A DNA stretch of 64,000 nucleotides, taken from the IMG/VR virus record IMGVR_UViG_3300033182_000678, positions 15,975-79,974 of that record, one strand, 5' to 3'. This DNA is from a virus. The notes under the pieces were generated by a model. That model did not search any database. It saw only the letters and a program-made list of their open reading frames with translations, and was not told the origin of the DNA. Within the stretch, counting starts at the first letter, position 1. Every line of letters starts with the position of its first letter. Made by a program: the position numbers and the translations under genes. Positions 30,911 through 34,851 of this stretch are shown here, piece by piece.

Positions 30911-31666
30911 TTACGAATTAAATAATTCATCAAAAGCTTCTGAAGTGTCTTTCACTTTAGAAGACTCTAATTCAGAACTTGTTACGGTATCTTGAGTATC
31001 TGATTCACCATCTGATTCCTCTGATGGGTTCAACCATTCATCCAATACACCTGACAAGTCGTCATAAGATAACTCTTGATAAATCTCACGAATGTCTTGT
31101 TGTTCTTTGACTTTCTCTAAGATTTCAGGTTCGTCTGAAATTGGTGTTTGATTAGGTTTTACTCTAATCTTTGTTGTAGGGAAACTAGCTCCTGTTTCCT
31201 CTGCGGATATGAACTCAACTACAACATCACGACCATTAACTGGGTCTGTAATATCACCATAATCAGGGTCAGCGATTACAGAAAGTAATTCTTGGTATAC
31301 GGTTTTACCGAATCCCCAAAATTTTACTCCTTGTTTCTCTTCACCTCTTACGATAACAGGTGCAAAAGTTCTCATTTTTGCCTCTAATTTACGAGCCAAC
31401 TGATAGTCTTCTTTGTTACCACTTCCACGAAGTTTCTGTGCAAACTCTTCAATCGGGTCAGGTCTTCCAAAGGATATTGGTGAAAGATATGAACGATTAT
31501 TGAGATTGTAGTGGAAAAATAACTCAATGAAAGGATTGTCTTTATTGAATGAATAAGGAACGATTCTGATTTGAGTTTTACCAGGTTGTGGTTTCCAAAG
31601 ACTTGATGTTCTGTTGTTTGTTGTTTGAAGTTGATTTAACCTCTTACGAATAGCATTTAAGTCCAT
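30911..31666 (-). CDS. Single-stranded DNA-binding protein (T4 gp32-like)
   Basis: WKP..G..IRIVP, WGFGK.V, D...GRD motifs; acidic tail ending FDELFNS. Confidence 0.85.
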   Translation of the reverse strand: MDLNAIRKRLNQLQTTNNRTSSLWKPQPGKTQIRIVPYSFNKDNPFIELFFHYNLNNRSYLSPISFGRPDPIEEFAQKLRGSGNKEDYQLARKLEAKMRTFAPVIVRGEEKQGVKFWGFGKTVYQELLSVIADPDYGDITDPVNGRDVVVEFISAEETGASFPTTKIRVKPNQTPISDEPEILEKVKEQQDIREIYQELSYDDLSGVLDEWLNPSEESDGESDTQDTVTSSELESSKVKDTSEAFDELFNS

Positions 31667-31781
31667 TGTTTATCTCCTATTTGTTAATTTATTAATTGTT
31701 AATTAGTATTCAAGTATAACCTTGATACAATAATATATATCATATATATTTGTAAAAAACGGATTTATTTTCATTATTTGC

Positions 31782-31853
31782 AAAAAAAATGGTCATCTTG
31801 TTTTTAAGTTTGTAAATAAGGTGGAAACTAAAAATCGTGTGACCATTTTTTTT
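31782..31853 (-). terminator. Long hairpin with U-tract just 3' of the candidate ncRNA
   Basis: aaaaaaaatggtca...tgaccattttttt outer stem, plus an inner tttttaagttt/aaactaaaaa stem. Confidence 0.65.
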
Positions 31854-31860
31854 AAGTTTA

Positions 31861-32269
31861 TGAAATCTATGGGGATGTAGGACTAACGATTACCTACAAC
31901 TTGAAGCTTGGATTTTTTATACCTTGTACCTAACACCCATCAGTTACGATGATTCTTCTCAAGATGGTTAATCTCATTGAAGTGAGTACAACCTCTGTGT
32001 TATTACCTTATCTCTCCAAGATTAGATTATTCGGTCATAAAGTGGGATTTCAGTTTTACCCTTACCCACAACAAGGTCAATAGAATCGTTTCTATTATAG
32101 TTTTATCTTCAAGTACATTAAATGATTGATGTCTCAACTACCGAAATTATTTTAACCTCAGTAGGTTCACCACAAACTCATTTCAGATTACCTTATGGGC
32201 TTCTAAAGTCTACCCATTATTCGGTCAATCCCATACAGAGTTAATTACTCTCTGTACTTTCTGATTTCA
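31861..32269 (-). ncRNA. Candidate large structured non-coding RNA (~410 nt), family unassigned
   Basis: ORF-free gap; end-to-end helix, several nested long-range helices and a duplicated UGACCGAAUAAU...AUAAGGUAAU module. Confidence 0.7.
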
Positions 32270-32346
32270 AATTTTCAAAAAACTAATTTACTTAAGACCA
32301 ATTAAGTAAGTTATGTTTATATATATATTGGAAAAATCCCAAACCG

Positions 32347-32391
32347 TATTTTTTTTTAATTTTTTTTTATTTTTTTTTATTTTTTTATTTT
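32347..32391. repeat. T/A tracts phased at about 10 bp
   Basis: (ttttttttat)n-like run upstream of the candidate ncRNA. Confidence 0.6.
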
Positions 32392-32792
32392 AACCATTCA
32401 TTAACATCAATAATAGAATGAATCTTTGTAGGAATCTTTGTTAATCCATTTTCATTTGTTAATAATAGTGTGTTCTGAAACTCATCCCAATCAACCATAA
32501 ACTTCTTATCTAAGATTCCATTATTCTTTGAACGAATAACTTCATTCAATGCATTGATTGTGTAGAGTGTATTTGATTGTTTCTTTCTATGAAGAGATAT
32601 AGTATCTATTGTTGGTTCTTGAAAGTCTTCATTGAATTCCACATTGTAAGTGCATAACAATTGTGATGGGTCATTTACATCTGTAAAGACATAAACCTTA
32701 TCATATAAAATTTTATTACAAGAAACTATGATATCAATGGATTCATTTAGTTTGTCTTGTTTAGTGAATGTACATAGTAATTGAGTCCTCAT
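32385..32792 (-). CDS. Conserved-looking phage hypothetical protein
   Basis: MRTQLLCTF...HRKKQSNTLYTINALN; start moved to 32792 to avoid overlap. Confidence 0.65.
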   Translation of the reverse strand: MRTQLLCTFTKQDKLNESIDIIVSCNKILYDKVYVFTDVNDPSQLLCTYNVEFNEDFQEPTIDTISLHRKKQSNTLYTINALNEVIRSKNNGILDKKFMVDWDEFQNTLLLTNENGLTKIPTKIHSIIDVNEWLK

Positions 32793-32793
32793 A

Positions 32794-34851
32794 TTATACA
32801 TCACACTTATATTTTTTATCGTATTGTTCGGCCTCTGGTACATCTCTACCGATTTTCTTATTGGCACAATATAACTTTTCTTTCATTACAGGATGTAGAT
32901 TCATTTCCAAGTTAACCACAGGTTCATATCCCAATCCTCTTTGTCTTGGTGCAATAGTAGAAATAGGAACTACATCACCACCTACTTCCGCCTGAAATAC
33001 TAATTGATATTCATCATTATCATCTGGCCCTTGTATAGTTAATTTTTCTTGAACCTCATCATAATCAGTAGTTCCAAATACCTCTTTCATAACTTCTGGG
33101 TCTGCATTAACACCACCCAATGACATTTTTTCCTCACCATCCATAAGGGATTTCAATGGAAACTTTTCTCTAATCGTATTCATTACACCTGATTTATATG
33201 GTTCTTTTACCATGTTCTCTACAAATGATTTATTAAAATCTTTTCCTATTTGTAAATGTTTATCAAGTTCTTCTTTTGCAGATTCATCGTTAATTGGTTC
33301 ACCACCTAAAGTTCTCATCATCATTACTGAGAATTTATCTTGATACTTACCTGTAGTTTTCTTCGCATTGAATCCATTATCAATCATTGCCTGTCTTAAT
33401 TCTTCTTTACTATATGGATGTTTTAAACTCTTCATTGTTTTAACTAATACTTTACAATAATCTTTTGCCTGACCAGTTATCTTAGATAACTTAGCAATAT
33501 ACTCATCATCATTTTCATCTAAATCTTGTATCTTACCATGTTGTTCTTCAGATACATTCTCAAAGAACTTAGATGCATTTTGTGTTGTTTTTTCATTAAA
33601 CTTTTTAGGATTTGCCTCTTCAGGTATATTATCATTTGATTTCTCTAATATTTCTTTCTGTCTCTTTGTTAGTTCTTTATATTCATTACCTTTATCTTTT
33701 CCTGCACTTTTTAATTCTTGTTTCTTTCTTACAATCTCATCATATTCTTTTTTATCTTCAACAACACCCCACTCATCAACTGCATTTACTGATGGTTGTG
33801 ATAAAAATATATCCAAATTCTTTTTCAAACTAACTTCATCTAATACACTACCATCTGGTGTTTTAACTCTCAAATACATATCAGTAGAGAATCCTTTGTT
33901 TCTACCATAGTCTGATAGTCCCATCGCCTCTACATCTCCTTTTAAATCCCATGCACCATTTTCAACTTCCCAATTACCCTCACCATATGTTGCATCTAAT
34001 CTTGATTTTATACCACCACGAACACTTTCAACTGATTGTAACCAATCCTCTGATAATATAGGTTCACTACCCTTTTCATATCTTGGTGGTTTATATGGAA
34101 CTAAAGTTCCATCTTTTAGTTTTTTCATTTGTTGTGGTAATTTTTCATTATGTTTTCTGATTGTGTCCATAAGATTTTTCATCTCATCATCAGTAAGTGT
34201 TGGGCCAATCATAGATAATACCTCTGCAGCTTGTGCCTGTATCTTACCTGCACCTGATGCATTAATCATTGATGTGATAGGTGGTGTAGTTTGATTTACA
34301 TATCTTGAATTAATTAATCTTTCTACAAGTTTAATATATTTCTTTGGAACTTTAGATGGTGAACCAAATATATCATCTGGTAACTTTGTTGGACTCTCAC
34401 CCTCTTTTAATTTTTGTTGTTCAGGTTTAGACTTTTCATATTCCTCATCACTTGGTTCTACATCTTTTTGATAATAATCATTATCAACATCACTTAATGA
34501 CTTATCTTTTTCACTTTTTGGTTGTTCTTTTTCACCTTTTTCGCTATCATCGCCCCCACTTCCACCGACAGGAACTAATTCACCATCTTTTGAAGTGTGA
34601 GTTACTTTATCATCTTTACCATAATTACCAAATCCCATATGTGTTAATCCAAGTTTCTTTGCTTGGTCACTTGTTTTGGATTCAGTAAGATTGTGTATGA
34701 GTTCTATGCGTGCTTCTATGGGCCAGTTAAACTCTTTCAACACATCAAACAATTTAATTAAGTGTTGTTCGTTGTTTAAATTAGGCACCCCATCTCTAAC
34801 ACGATAGGATAATTCGGTTAGTATTTTACTTAGTTCGTTTTTCATCACCAA
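32794..34851 (-). CDS. Large hypothetical protein, possibly head-internal
   Basis: 685 aa, highly charged; LTE motifs near the N-terminus. Confidence 0.6.
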   Translation of the reverse strand: MVMKNELSKILTELSYRVRDGVPNLNNEQHLIKLFDVLKEFNWPIEARIELIHNLTESKTSDQAKKLGLTHMGFGNYGKDDKVTHTSKDGELVPVGGSGGDDSEKGEKEQPKSEKDKSLSDVDNDYYQKDVEPSDEEYEKSKPEQQKLKEGESPTKLPDDIFGSPSKVPKKYIKLVERLINSRYVNQTTPPITSMINASGAGKIQAQAAEVLSMIGPTLTDDEMKNLMDTIRKHNEKLPQQMKKLKDGTLVPYKPPRYEKGSEPILSEDWLQSVESVRGGIKSRLDATYGEGNWEVENGAWDLKGDVEAMGLSDYGRNKGFSTDMYLRVKTPDGSVLDEVSLKKNLDIFLSQPSVNAVDEWGVVEDKKEYDEIVRKKQELKSAGKDKGNEYKELTKRQKEILEKSNDNIPEEANPKKFNEKTTQNASKFFENVSEEQHGKIQDLDENDDEYIAKLSKITGQAKDYCKVLVKTMKSLKHPYSKEELRQAMIDNGFNAKKTTGKYQDKFSVMMMRTLGGEPINDESAKEELDKHLQIGKDFNKSFVENMVKEPYKSGVMNTIREKFPLKSLMDGEEKMSLGGVNADPEVMKEVFGTTDYDEVQEKLTIQGPDDNDEYQLVFQAEVGGDVVPISTIAPRQRGLGYEPVVNLEMNLHPVMKEKLYCANKKIGRDVPEAEQYDKKYKCDV

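What the first reader, a model, noticed from the sequence alone, without database searches (positions are those of the whole stretch)
31861..32269. ~410-nt highly nested structured RNA upstream of the SSB gene
Seen, in the largest ORF-free gap and read on the minus strand: terminal helix UGAAAUC/GAUUUCA (32263-69 with 31861-67); UAUGGGAU/AUCCCCAUA; long-range ACUUGAAG/CUUCAAGU (32107-14 with 31899-906), ACCUUGU/ACAAGGU (32071-77 with 31921-27) and UAACAC/GUGUUA; local hairpins UACAGAG/CUCUGUA, AAUAGA/UCUAUU, GUGGG/CCCAC and GUAGG/CCUAC. The helices are essentially mutually nested. A module UGACCGAAUAAU-[stem]-AUAAGGUAAU occurs twice (32187-32227 and 32002-32037) with different but paired inner stems. 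Known: GAA/UAA internal loops are tertiary-contact motifs of large RNAs, and phages carry large ncRNAs such as GOLLD and ROOL. I see no tRNA, tmRNA, RNase P or intron signature. Inference: a stand-alone large ncRNA with its own terminator, possibly a new class or a compact GOLLD/ROOL relative.
Basis: partly seen in the sequence, partly recalled or inferred. Interest (0 to 1): 0.85.

Follow-up and report, generated by a model that had tools for sequence, protein, structure and literature searches.

The report
Fused double manA phage RNA
The flagged 410-base gap in this uncultured marine phage encodes a real, intricately folded non-coding RNA, but it is not a new class: it is two copies of the known "manA" RNA (reported in 2026 to build RNA-only cages in vitro) fused into one interlocked chain, a form that is not in Rfam or in the papers I could search.

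Summary

The RNA is not a new class and not a GOLLD/ROOL relative. Rfam's manA model (RF01745) matches the 3' half at 70.3 bits (cut-off 55.2). It matches the 5' half, searched alone, at 31.3 bits (E 1e-6).

The two manA cores share one closing helix (GGGAU/AUCCC). A pseudoknot and a loop-loop pair also covary. I infer that the loop-loop pair corresponds to the L8-L9' cage contact of the 2026 cryo-EM preprint.

The element appears to be its own transcription unit:
- a promoter-like motif lies upstream of it;
- a conserved two-tier terminator hairpin follows it;
- a second promoter-like motif lies between that hairpin and the gp32-like SSB gene.

This favours a free-standing RNA over a riboswitch. 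Its biological role is unknown.

This scan has already found the same fused form on other DNA (e1-5833224, e1-5366135, e1-5366153). Verdict: a new variant of a known kind, of moderate interest.

The parts
32311..32348 (-). Promoter-like motif upstream of the RNA (TACGGTTTGGGATTTTT ... ATATATATAAACAT)
   Evidence: The same two-part motif (TACATTTT.. then TATATTAWTGTATC-like) recurs upstream of the RNA and again upstream of the SSB gene in the homologous loci (by eye). The -10-like word is enriched in the window, 26 matches against 11.65 expected, several in intergenic gaps on the minus strand. Inference; no transcription start was mapped.
32288..32310 (-). 5' hairpin CUUACUUAA-UUGGUC-UUAAGUAA ahead of the RNA
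   Evidence: Homologues keep a hairpin here with compensatory changes, for example UUACUUGA/UCAAGUAA and AUACUCGA/UCGGGUAU. Other clades have GUAUC...GAUAC hairpins (by eye).
32270..32283 (-). Nearly invariant leader GUUUUUUGA(A/C)AAUU
   Evidence: Invariant or near-invariant columns 8-21 of alignment A2. Role unknown.
31861..32269 (-). Whole fused double manA RNA, closed by terminal helix UGAAAUC/GAUUUCA
   Evidence: Full-length homologues in 41 IMG/VR loci, 30 distinct. Covariation. Terminal helix.
32042..32256 (-). manA-like unit 1: hairpin A1, P1 5' strand GGGAU, GAAUAA/UAAGG module, three-hairpin junction with GUGGUG loop, P8-like hairpin AAUAGA/UCUAUU, P9-like hairpin GUGGG/CCCAC
   Evidence: Searched alone it matches RF01745 at 31.3 bits, E 1.2e-6, below the cut-off of 55.2. 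The equivalent unit in a homologous contig scores 39.9 bits, E 2.3e-10.
31872..32070 (-). manA-like unit 2: the Rfam manA hit (second module, second three-hairpin junction, hairpin GUAGG/CCUAC, P1 3' strand AUCCC)
   Evidence: RF01745 at 70.3 bits, cut-off 55.2, E 1e-17.
32107..32114 (-). 5' strand of long-range helix L1 (ACUUGAAG), pairing with 31899-31906
   Evidence: 85.5% of cells paired, 6 of 8 pairs with compensatory changes. In the Rfam alignments these strands sit where each unit's P8 outer stem should be.
32071..32077 (-). 5' strand of long-range helix L2 (ACCUUGU), pairing with 31921-31927
   Evidence: 94.5% paired, 5 of 7 pairs compensatory. Also predicted by RNAalifold.
32015..32020 (-). 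Pseudoknot: loop of module 2 (CUUGGA) pairing with UCCAAG at 31907-31912
   Evidence: 6 bp in all 31 sequences, in six sequence variants. 100% paired, 3 pairs compensatory, slid controls 21-41%.
32085..32090 (-). Loop-loop pair: P8-like loop AACGAU with AUCGUU at 31885-31890 in the last hairpin's loop
   Evidence: Variants AACGAUU/AAUCGUU, GAUGAUU/AAUCAUU, GCGA/UCGC, AACC/GGUU and GUAGCC/GGCUGU. 5 of 6 pairs with compensatory changes, 73% paired on the uncorrected alignment.
31782..31853 (-). Two-tier terminator-like hairpin with U-run: variable outer stem, near-invariant inner stem UUUUUAGUUU/AAACUUAAAAA, and a loop starting CCAC
   Evidence: RNAalifold on 21 homologues gives 17 pairs, 6 compensatory. 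The word ATTTTTAGTTTCCAC occurs exactly once in the window, and once in each of 47 fetched loci, all of them loci that carry the RNA or refetches of such loci. An RNA-library contig identical to the window reaches 31839.
31710..31756 (-). Second promoter-like motif and 5' hairpin (UCAAG/CUUGA) of the SSB transcript
   Evidence: Consensus scan TTTACA-18-TATTGT. Exact match to the -10-like word at 31725-31737. Conserved in homologues.
30911..31666 (-). gp32-like single-strand DNA-binding protein gene (251 aa), downstream neighbour
   Evidence: PHROG 1192 and 224, single strand DNA binding protein, E 2e-18. Followed by a UvsX-like recombinase, an exonuclease and a DnaB-like helicase.

Best explanation
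Summary. The element is a non-coding RNA gene of about 410 nt. It would be about 530 nt if the 5' hairpin and terminator hairpin are part of the transcript. It belongs to an uncultured marine myovirus whose nearest cultured relative is Microcystis phage Mel-JY01.

What is shown.
- The RNA consists of two manA-type cores fused head to tail.
- One P1 helix (GGGAU/AUCCC) closes both cores.
- The two strands of each unit's long P8-type helix pair with the other unit's strands instead of with each other. These pairings are helices L1 and L2, and they lock the halves into one nested fold.
- A pseudoknot (loop of module 2 with the P8-region strand) is supported by covariation.
- A loop-loop pair between unit 1's P8-like hairpin and unit 2's last hairpin is also supported.

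What is inferred.
- The RNA is transcribed from its own promoter and ended by its own conserved terminator hairpin. It would then act as a free-standing, stable, self-associating structural RNA rather than as a switch for the SSB gene.
- It behaves as a covalent 'dimer' of the manA protomer. Single manA protomers form pentamer-based cages in vitro through L5-L7' and L8-L9' kissing loops (Ren et al. 2026 preprint).
- What it does for the phage is not known.

My confidence in the family identity and the fold is about 0.9. My confidence in 'free-standing, self-associating RNA' is about 0.45.
For: Identity.
- RF01745 matches the 3' unit at 70.3 bits.
- The 5' unit alone matches at 31.3 bits, E 1.2e-6. 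Every manA element aligns in order: H1, P1 5' strand, module, junction with GUGGUG loop, P8-like hairpin, P9-like hairpin.
- Both units are also hit separately in three homologous contigs.

Fold.
- 110 pairs, 90.2% paired against about 42% in slid controls, 81 pairs with compensatory change.
- An independent RNAalifold consensus gives 76 pairs, 57 compensatory, including long-range P1 and L2.
- The pseudoknot and the loop-loop pair covary.

Separate transcription unit.
- The same promoter-like motif appears upstream of the RNA and again between the terminator and the SSB gene.
- The hairpin plus U-run covaries.
- A divergent double manA sits beside eight tRNA genes, not beside an SSB gene (L006).
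- SSB relatives at 70-75% identity, and phage Mel-JY01, lack the RNA.
- No conserved sequence upstream can compete with the terminator stem, because that stem varies between clades.

Presence in RNA libraries.
- 14 metatranscriptome runs hold part of the stretch.
- In four runs from four studies, contigs lie on 31839-32230.

Self-assembly of manA.
- Read in the preprint 10.64898/2026.07.01.735769.
- In the Rfam consensus the P8 loop (aCUgu) and the P9 loop (acAgu) are complementary (by eye).
- The window's covarying AACGAU/AUCGUU pair lies at those same model positions.
Against: - No transcript ends were mapped. Promoter and terminator are inferred from motifs and covariation only.
- The RNA-library evidence consists of assembled contigs, mostly from relatives about 90% identical to the window. 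The tool warns that DNA can be present in such libraries.
- The element always lies upstream of, and co-oriented with, the SSB gene in 41 loci. That also fits a cis-regulatory role, which is how Rfam types manA.
- My mapping of the preprint's loop numbers (L5 to L9) onto the Rfam helices is an inference; I could not see the figures.
- Cage formation has been shown only in vitro, for RNAs under 200 nt, in a preprint.
- Covariation cannot tell whether the loop-loop pair forms within one molecule or between molecules.
- The 5' unit is below Rfam's gathering score.
Confidence: 0.6

Rival explanations
1. A cis-acting riboswitch or attenuator for the SSB gene. Two manA aptamers in one fold would sense a metabolite and set read-through of the hairpin plus U-run at 31853-31782 into the gp32-like gene.
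For: - Rfam types manA as Cis-reg, and Weinberg et al. 2010 rated it a probable riboswitch because it lies upstream of non-homologous genes and has a complex junction.
- The element is upstream of, and co-oriented with, the SSB gene in all 41 loci.
- A terminator-like hairpin lies between the element and the gene.
- Two aptamer-like cores recall cooperative tandem aptamers. This last point is my own knowledge and was not tested.
Against: - A second promoter-like motif and a 5' hairpin lie between the terminator and the SSB start codon.
- The terminator's outer stem differs between clades while the RNA core stays the same, so no conserved antiterminator pairing exists.
- The terminal helix and the terminator do not overlap.
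- The same RNA type occurs next to tRNA arrays (L006), and rows of the original manA alignment are flanked by tRNA genes.
- Close SSB relatives manage without the RNA.
- I found no validated ligand for manA in the papers I searched.
Confidence: 0.2
2. Two separate manA RNAs in tandem that are cut apart or fold independently. The long-range helices would be incidental.
For: Infernal can align each half to the full manA model. The middle hairpin (GUGGG/CCCAC) serves as the last hairpin of unit 1 and as the first hairpin of unit 2.
Against: - P1, L1 and L2 join the two halves and keep pairing through compensatory changes: P1 100%, L1 85.5%, L2 94.5%. RNAalifold finds P1 and L2 on its own.
- Unit 1 has no P1 3' strand of its own, and unit 2 has no P1 5' strand and no P8 hairpin.
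- A terminal helix encloses both units.
Confidence: 0.04
3. An RNA tied to the replication and recombination module itself. It could be a decoy or operator that binds the gp32-like SSB or a RegA-like repressor, or a primer or R-loop RNA for an origin next to the SSB, UvsX and helicase genes.
For: - The RNA lies at the head of a gene run encoding SSB, a UvsX-like recombinase, an exonuclease and a helicase.
- The terminator hairpin has a near-invariant interior and a CCAC loop start, more conserved than termination needs, as a protein or RNA docking site would be.
- T4 gene 32 is autoregulated through an RNA structure in its leader. This is my own knowledge.
Against: - Related double manA RNAs lie in tRNA clusters, away from any SSB gene (scan notes).
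- The SSB leader has its own hairpin and an AU-rich stretch downstream of the terminator.
- Nothing in the sequence points to an origin.
- No test of protein binding was possible.
Confidence: 0.1

Closest known systems
manA RNA motif (Rfam RF01745; Weinberg et al. 2010, PMC2864571; cryo-EM assemblies in Ren et al. 2026 preprint, 10.64898/2026.07.01.735769)
   Same: - The GAAUAA/UAAGG internal-loop module.
- A three-hairpin junction with a GUGGUG-type first loop.
- A GGGAU/AUCCC closing helix.
- A GUrGGUAA...AAUCCyAC last hairpin.
- Complementary P8 and P9 loops.
- Occurrence in marine phages.
- The 3' half passes Rfam's cut-off.
   Different: - There are two cores in one chain of about 410 nt, instead of one core of about 190 nt.
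- One P1 helix spans both cores.
- The P8 outer-stem strands are exchanged between the units.
- Unit 2 has no P8 hairpin.
- The Rfam model sees only half of the RNA, and several homologues fall below its cut-off.
- It has its own terminator and a promoter-like motif, so it does not look like a 5' UTR element.
- I found no mention of a fused or tandem form in the 2010 paper, its tables or the 2026 preprint.
Strand-exchanged dimer of the EGFOA RNA (RF02955) in the same 2026 preprint
   Same: Two copies of a small RNA fold are linked by an exchange of helix strands rather than only by loop contacts.
   Different: - That dimer forms between two separate molecules through the 3'-terminal strand.
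- It involves an unrelated RNA family and was seen in vitro.
- Here the exchange is built into a single chain and is fixed by evolution.
Tandem or cooperative riboswitch aptamers (for example glycine, or PRPP/guanine tandem arrangements, PMC5912903)
   Same: Two related ligand-type domains lie in one transcript upstream of a gene.
   Different: - Here the units are interlocked by shared helices rather than placed side by side.
- No ligand is known.
- The expression-platform logic is not evident.
GOLLD and ROOL large phage-associated ncRNAs
   Same: They are large, ornate, phage-associated RNAs, often near tRNA genes.
   Different: There is no match to either Rfam family at E up to 10 in the region. 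The conserved modules here are those of manA.

Membership tests
manA RNA (RF01745) | Covariance-model score at or above Rfam's gathering score (55.2 bits) | tested here: met
   The 3' unit, 31872-32070, scores 70.3 bits. The 5' unit alone scores 31.3 bits, E 1.2e-6, which is significant but below the cut-off.
manA RNA (RF01745) | Internal-loop module CUGAAUAA ... UAAgG around a short hairpin | tested here: met
   Present twice, at 32227-32187 and 32037-32002. It aligns to model positions of about 43-72 in both units. The flanking pairs are 100% kept.
manA RNA (RF01745) | Closed three-hairpin junction whose first loop is GUGGUG-like | tested here: met
   Unit 1 is closed by AAAUGA/UCAUUU and has the loop GUGGUG. 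Unit 2 is closed by UAACAC/GUGUUA and has the loop GUUGUA. Both closing helices covary.
manA RNA (RF01745) | P1 helix GGGaG/CuCCC enclosing one core | tested here: inconclusive
   GGGAU/AUCCC is present, 100% paired and covarying. However, it encloses both cores, and the Rfam alignment of the 3' unit deletes it.
manA RNA (RF01745) | Long P8-type hairpin followed by a GugGGUA...AAUCCcaC hairpin in each core | tested here: not met
   Unit 1 has both hairpins. Unit 2 has the last hairpin but no P8 hairpin. The P8 outer-stem strands pair across the units as L1 and L2. This is the feature that makes the RNA a variant rather than a plain member.
manA RNA (RF01745) | Location in a 5' UTR (Rfam type Cis-reg) | tested here: inconclusive
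   It is upstream of, and co-oriented with, the SSB gene. It is separated from that gene by a hairpin plus U-run and a second promoter-like motif. No ends were mapped.
manA RNA (RF01745) | Homo-oligomeric closed assemblies through kissing loops (Ren et al. 2026) | not testable with these tools
   Only sequence-level hints are available. The P8-like and last-hairpin loops are complementary and covary. The unit 2 loops GUUGU and GUAAC are complementary but almost invariant.
GOLLD / ROOL | Match to the Rfam covariance models | tested here: not met
   No match at E up to 10 in 31600-32500, and none at the gathering score anywhere in the window.

The most novel reading that the evidence does not exclude
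The fused, strand-exchanged double manA would be a natural covalent dimer of a cage-forming RNA. In infected cells it would assemble through the covarying P8-loop/P9-loop contact, and the other conserved loops, into RNA-only shells or lattices with a geometry different from single manA. This would give the first evidence that RNA cages are physiological phage structures and not only in vitro assemblies. The near-invariant terminator hairpin could act as a docking arm.
Probability: 0.2. Interest if true: 0.85.

Novelty: new variant of a known kind. Interest (0 to 1): 0.55.

Why it matters
manA has been an orphan 'riboswitch candidate' since 2010. A 2026 preprint reports that single manA RNAs build 8-, 10- and 60-subunit RNA-only cages in vitro.

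In this fused form the exchanged helices, and a loop-loop pair at the positions I map to the cage's L8-L9' contact, have been kept by compensatory mutation across many phages. That argues that manA-manA contacts are under selection in nature.

The fused form also offers a defined two-core construct for structural work. It shows that the Rfam model covers only half of this RNA and misses several members of the family.

The evidence for a separate promoter and terminator adds weight to the view that manA RNAs are free-standing RNAs rather than gene switches.

It is not a new class of RNA, and this scan has met the same fused form before on other DNA.

Tried and rejected
- **blastn against cultured phages.** A search of 31700-32400 against 50,697 phage records found nothing. 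The family is known only from uncultured contigs.
- **Locus L010.** It came from the double-module pattern scan and is a chance match to a CTGACCGAAT repeat, not a manA RNA.
- **Unit 1 GUGGUG loop pairing with ACCAU in unit 2's middle hairpin loop.** They are complementary in most clades, but there is no covariation and the match is lost in the L007 clade. I make no claim.
- **A pseudoknot for module 1 like that of module 2.** No partner was found; own-sequence and cross-sequence complementarity are equal.
- **Loop of hairpin A1 pairing with GUUAAU in the last hairpin's loop.** This is not kept in clades where the A1 loop changes (by eye).
- **TTGACA/TTGAAA in the conserved leader as a -35 box.** The matching -10 would fall inside hairpin A1 and would cut off helices that covary, so I rejected it.
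- **Antiterminator pairing.** UGACC of the module could pair with GGUCA of the window's terminator, but terminator stems differ between clades, so I rejected it.
- **Parts of the stretch without RNA-library contigs.** The spacer and the upstream gene had none. Contig depth was not used to rank expression.
- **Literature searches.** They gave no experimental function for manA and no description of a fused form. Hits in two reviews were false matches to words such as 'manage'.
- **A covariance model of the whole element.** It was not built, because the element exceeds the 400-column and calibration limits of the tool.

Full report
**What is in the sequence**

Read on the minus strand, the gap between the 160-aa ORF (32867-32385) and the gp32-like SSB gene (31666-30911) contains no ORF of 40 aa or more on that strand. 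On its own the sequence folds only moderately better than shuffles (-100.1 kcal/mol, z = -2.31). Single-sequence folding is therefore not the argument; covariation is.

**Family identity**

- An Rfam scan of the whole window gives one hit: manA RNA (RF01745) at 31872-32070, minus strand, 70.3 bits against a gathering score of 55.2 (E 1e-17 in the regional scan).
- No GOLLD, ROOL or other family reaches E 10 in the region.
- The hit covers only the 3' half, and it deletes the model's closing helix GGGaG/CuCCC.
- When the 5' half is searched alone (32040-32300), it also matches the full manA model, at 31.3 bits, E 1.2e-6. The elements align in order:
  - hairpin UACAGAG/CUCUGUA as the first hairpin;
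  - GGGAU as the P1 5' strand;
  - the first GAAUAA/UAAGG module;
  - a three-hairpin junction with the family's GUGGUG loop;
  - AAUAGA/UCUAUU as the inner part of the long P8-type hairpin;
  - GUGGG...CCCAC as the last, GugGGUA...AAUCCcaC-type hairpin.
- In three homologous contigs both halves are hit separately, for example 61.2 and 39.9 bits (E 2.3e-10) in one of them.

**Homologues and covariation**

- A scan of IMG/VR with the SSB protein returned 80 loci, and a double-module DNA pattern returned 15.
- nhmmer found the whole element of about 440 nt in 41 loci, giving 30 distinct sequences. All with enough flank lie upstream of the SSB gene.
- On the 31-sequence alignment A2 I tested a structure of 110 pairs in 21 helices:
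  - 90.2% of cells are standard pairs, against 39-45% when partners are slid by 1-3 columns;
  - 81 pairs show changes on both sides, against 26-37 in the slid controls;
  - the covariation score is 0.508 against about 0.11;
  - no shuffle out of 500 reached the observed values.
- RNAalifold, which did not know my structure, recovers 76 pairs, 57 of them with compensatory changes. These include the long-range P1 (GGGAU/AUCCC) and L2 (ACCUUGU/ACAAGGU).
- The terminal helix looked weak on MAFFT columns, but per-sequence realignment shows it with covarying variants.

**Architecture**

The two Rfam alignments combined with the covariation give the following picture.

- P1 is formed by the 5' strand of unit 1 and the 3' strand of unit 2, and it closes both cores.
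- In a single manA the long P8-type hairpin has an outer stem made of two adjacent strands. Here the two outer-stem strands of unit 1 are ACUUGAAG and ACCUUGU. They pair with the corresponding strands of unit 2, CUUCAAGU and ACAAGGU.
Unit 2 has no P8 hairpin of its own.
- The result is a strand-exchanged, covalently joined pair of cores.

A scan for covarying pairs among unpaired columns and per-sequence loop comparisons added two tertiary pairings.

- **Pseudoknot.** The loop of module 2 (CUUGGA, 32020-32015) pairs with UCCAAG (31912-31907). It is 6 bp in all 31 sequences, in six variants, 100% paired with three compensatory pairs.
- **Loop-loop pair.** The P8-like loop AACGAU (32090-32085) pairs with AUCGUU (31890-31885) in the last hairpin's loop. 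Variants include GAUGAUU/AAUCAUU, GCGA/UCGC and AACC/GGUU. Five of six pairs have compensatory changes.

**Link to what is known**

- manA was described in 2010 as a probable riboswitch of marine phages and a few gamma-proteobacteria, with no ligand. Later phage papers only repeat this.
- Notes from this scan pointed me to a July 2026 preprint, which I read.
  - Single manA RNAs under 200 nt form a 60-subunit icosahedral cage, decamers and octamers in vitro.
  - These are built from pentamers held by intermolecular kissing loops: L5-L7' and L8-L9' in one variant; L6-P6' GNRA-receptor, L5-L7' and L3-L8' in another.
  - The preprint does not mention tandem or fused forms or any in vivo role.
- In the Rfam consensus the P8 loop (aCUgu) and the last hairpin's loop (acAgu) are reverse complements. 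The first and third junction loops (GUGGUG, ACCA) are complementary. The middle junction loop is a GNRA (by eye). I therefore map the preprint's L5-L9 to these loops; this mapping is my inference.
- On that mapping, the covarying AACGAU/AUCGUU pair of the fused RNA is the L8-L9 contact, between unit 1 and unit 2. Covariation cannot say whether it forms within one chain or between chains.

**Transcription unit**

- Downstream of the fold lies a hairpin and U-run (31853-31782). Its outer stem changes completely between clades while staying paired. Its inner stem, and a loop that starts CCAC, are almost invariant.
- Its signature word occurs exactly once in the window. It occurs once in each of 47 fetched loci, all of which carry the RNA or are refetches of such loci, and in none of the SSB loci that lack the RNA.
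- Between this hairpin and the SSB start codon there is a promoter-like motif, a 5' hairpin, an AU-rich leader and a Shine-Dalgarno sequence. A very similar promoter-like motif and 5' hairpin precede the RNA. The -10-like word is enriched in the window (26 matches against 11.65 expected).
- A divergent double manA (L006) sits next to eight tRNA genes rather than an SSB gene. Some rows of the original 2010 alignment are also flanked by tRNAs.
- SSB relatives at 70-75% identity, and the nearest cultured phage, Microcystis phage Mel-JY01 (56% UvsX identity), have no such RNA.
- Fourteen metatranscriptome runs hold part of the stretch. In four runs from four studies, contigs lie on 31839-32230, mostly from relatives about 90% identical. 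This shows presence in RNA libraries, not proven transcription.
- Together these points favour a separately transcribed, free-standing RNA over a switch for the SSB gene. No ends were mapped.

**Verdict**

- The 'new class / GOLLD-ROOL relative' reading is not supported.
- The RNA is a manA-family member of an undescribed fused, strand-exchanged double form, so it is a new variant of a known kind.
- Rfam's model sees only half of it and misses several homologues (L012, L007, L048 and L033 are below the cut-off).
- This scan has already reported the same kind of RNA on other DNA, so this window adds an independent, well-supported instance rather than a first sighting.
- Function in infection remains unknown. 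My best reading is a stable, self-associating structural RNA (about 0.45). The alternatives are a riboswitch or attenuator for the SSB gene (about 0.2) and a replication-module-specific role (about 0.1).

Noticed in passing
window 31782-31853 (-): The terminator-like hairpin after the RNA is far more conserved than termination needs. The inner stem UUUUUAGUUU/AAACUUAAAAA is near-invariant, and so is a loop starting CCAC, which is complementary to the invariant GUGG of unit 1's GUGGUG loop. Both are invariant, so no covariation test is possible. It may be a docking arm or a protein site.
   Followed up: partly
window 32311-32348 and 31710-31756 (-): The same two-part promoter-like motif (TACATTTT-like, then TATATTAWTGTATC-like), followed by a 5' hairpin, occurs upstream of the RNA and upstream of the SSB gene. 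The -10-like word also lies in several other minus-strand intergenic gaps (about 3150, 13950, 25590, 51705, 54865). It is probably a phage promoter class.
   Followed up: partly
window 31667-31725 (-): The SSB leader has a conserved hairpin UCAAG/CUUGA followed by a long AU-rich unstructured stretch before the Shine-Dalgarno sequence. This is reminiscent of the T4 gene 32 translational operator (my own knowledge). Not tested.
   Followed up: no
window 32349-32386 (-): A long run of A-tracts (A7-9 separated by single T or TT) lies directly after the stop codon of the upstream 160-aa ORF. It is conserved in many homologous loci just before the promoter-like motif.
   Followed up: no
L006:3375-3690 (+), with tRNAs at L006:1685-2933: A divergent double manA lies downstream of an array of eight tRNA genes in a 62.7-kb viral contig, not next to an SSB gene. 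Both halves hit RF01745 at 29.2 and 20.3 bits.
   Followed up: partly
L092:2240-2440, L005 and L002 (downstream of the RNA): In one clade an extra segment of about 60-70 nt lies between the RNA and the SSB promoter region, and a different terminator (GGUGGUGAG...CUCACCACC plus U-run) takes the place of the usual conserved hairpin.
   Followed up: no
window 32385-32867 and 32794-34851 (-): The two ORFs upstream of the RNA (160 aa and 685 aa) match no PHROG family at E 0.001.
   Followed up: no
L010:9000-9270 (-): An unrelated viral contig carries several copies of CTGACCGAAT(N) within about 250 nt. It matched the double-module pattern by chance and is some other short repeat.
   Followed up: no
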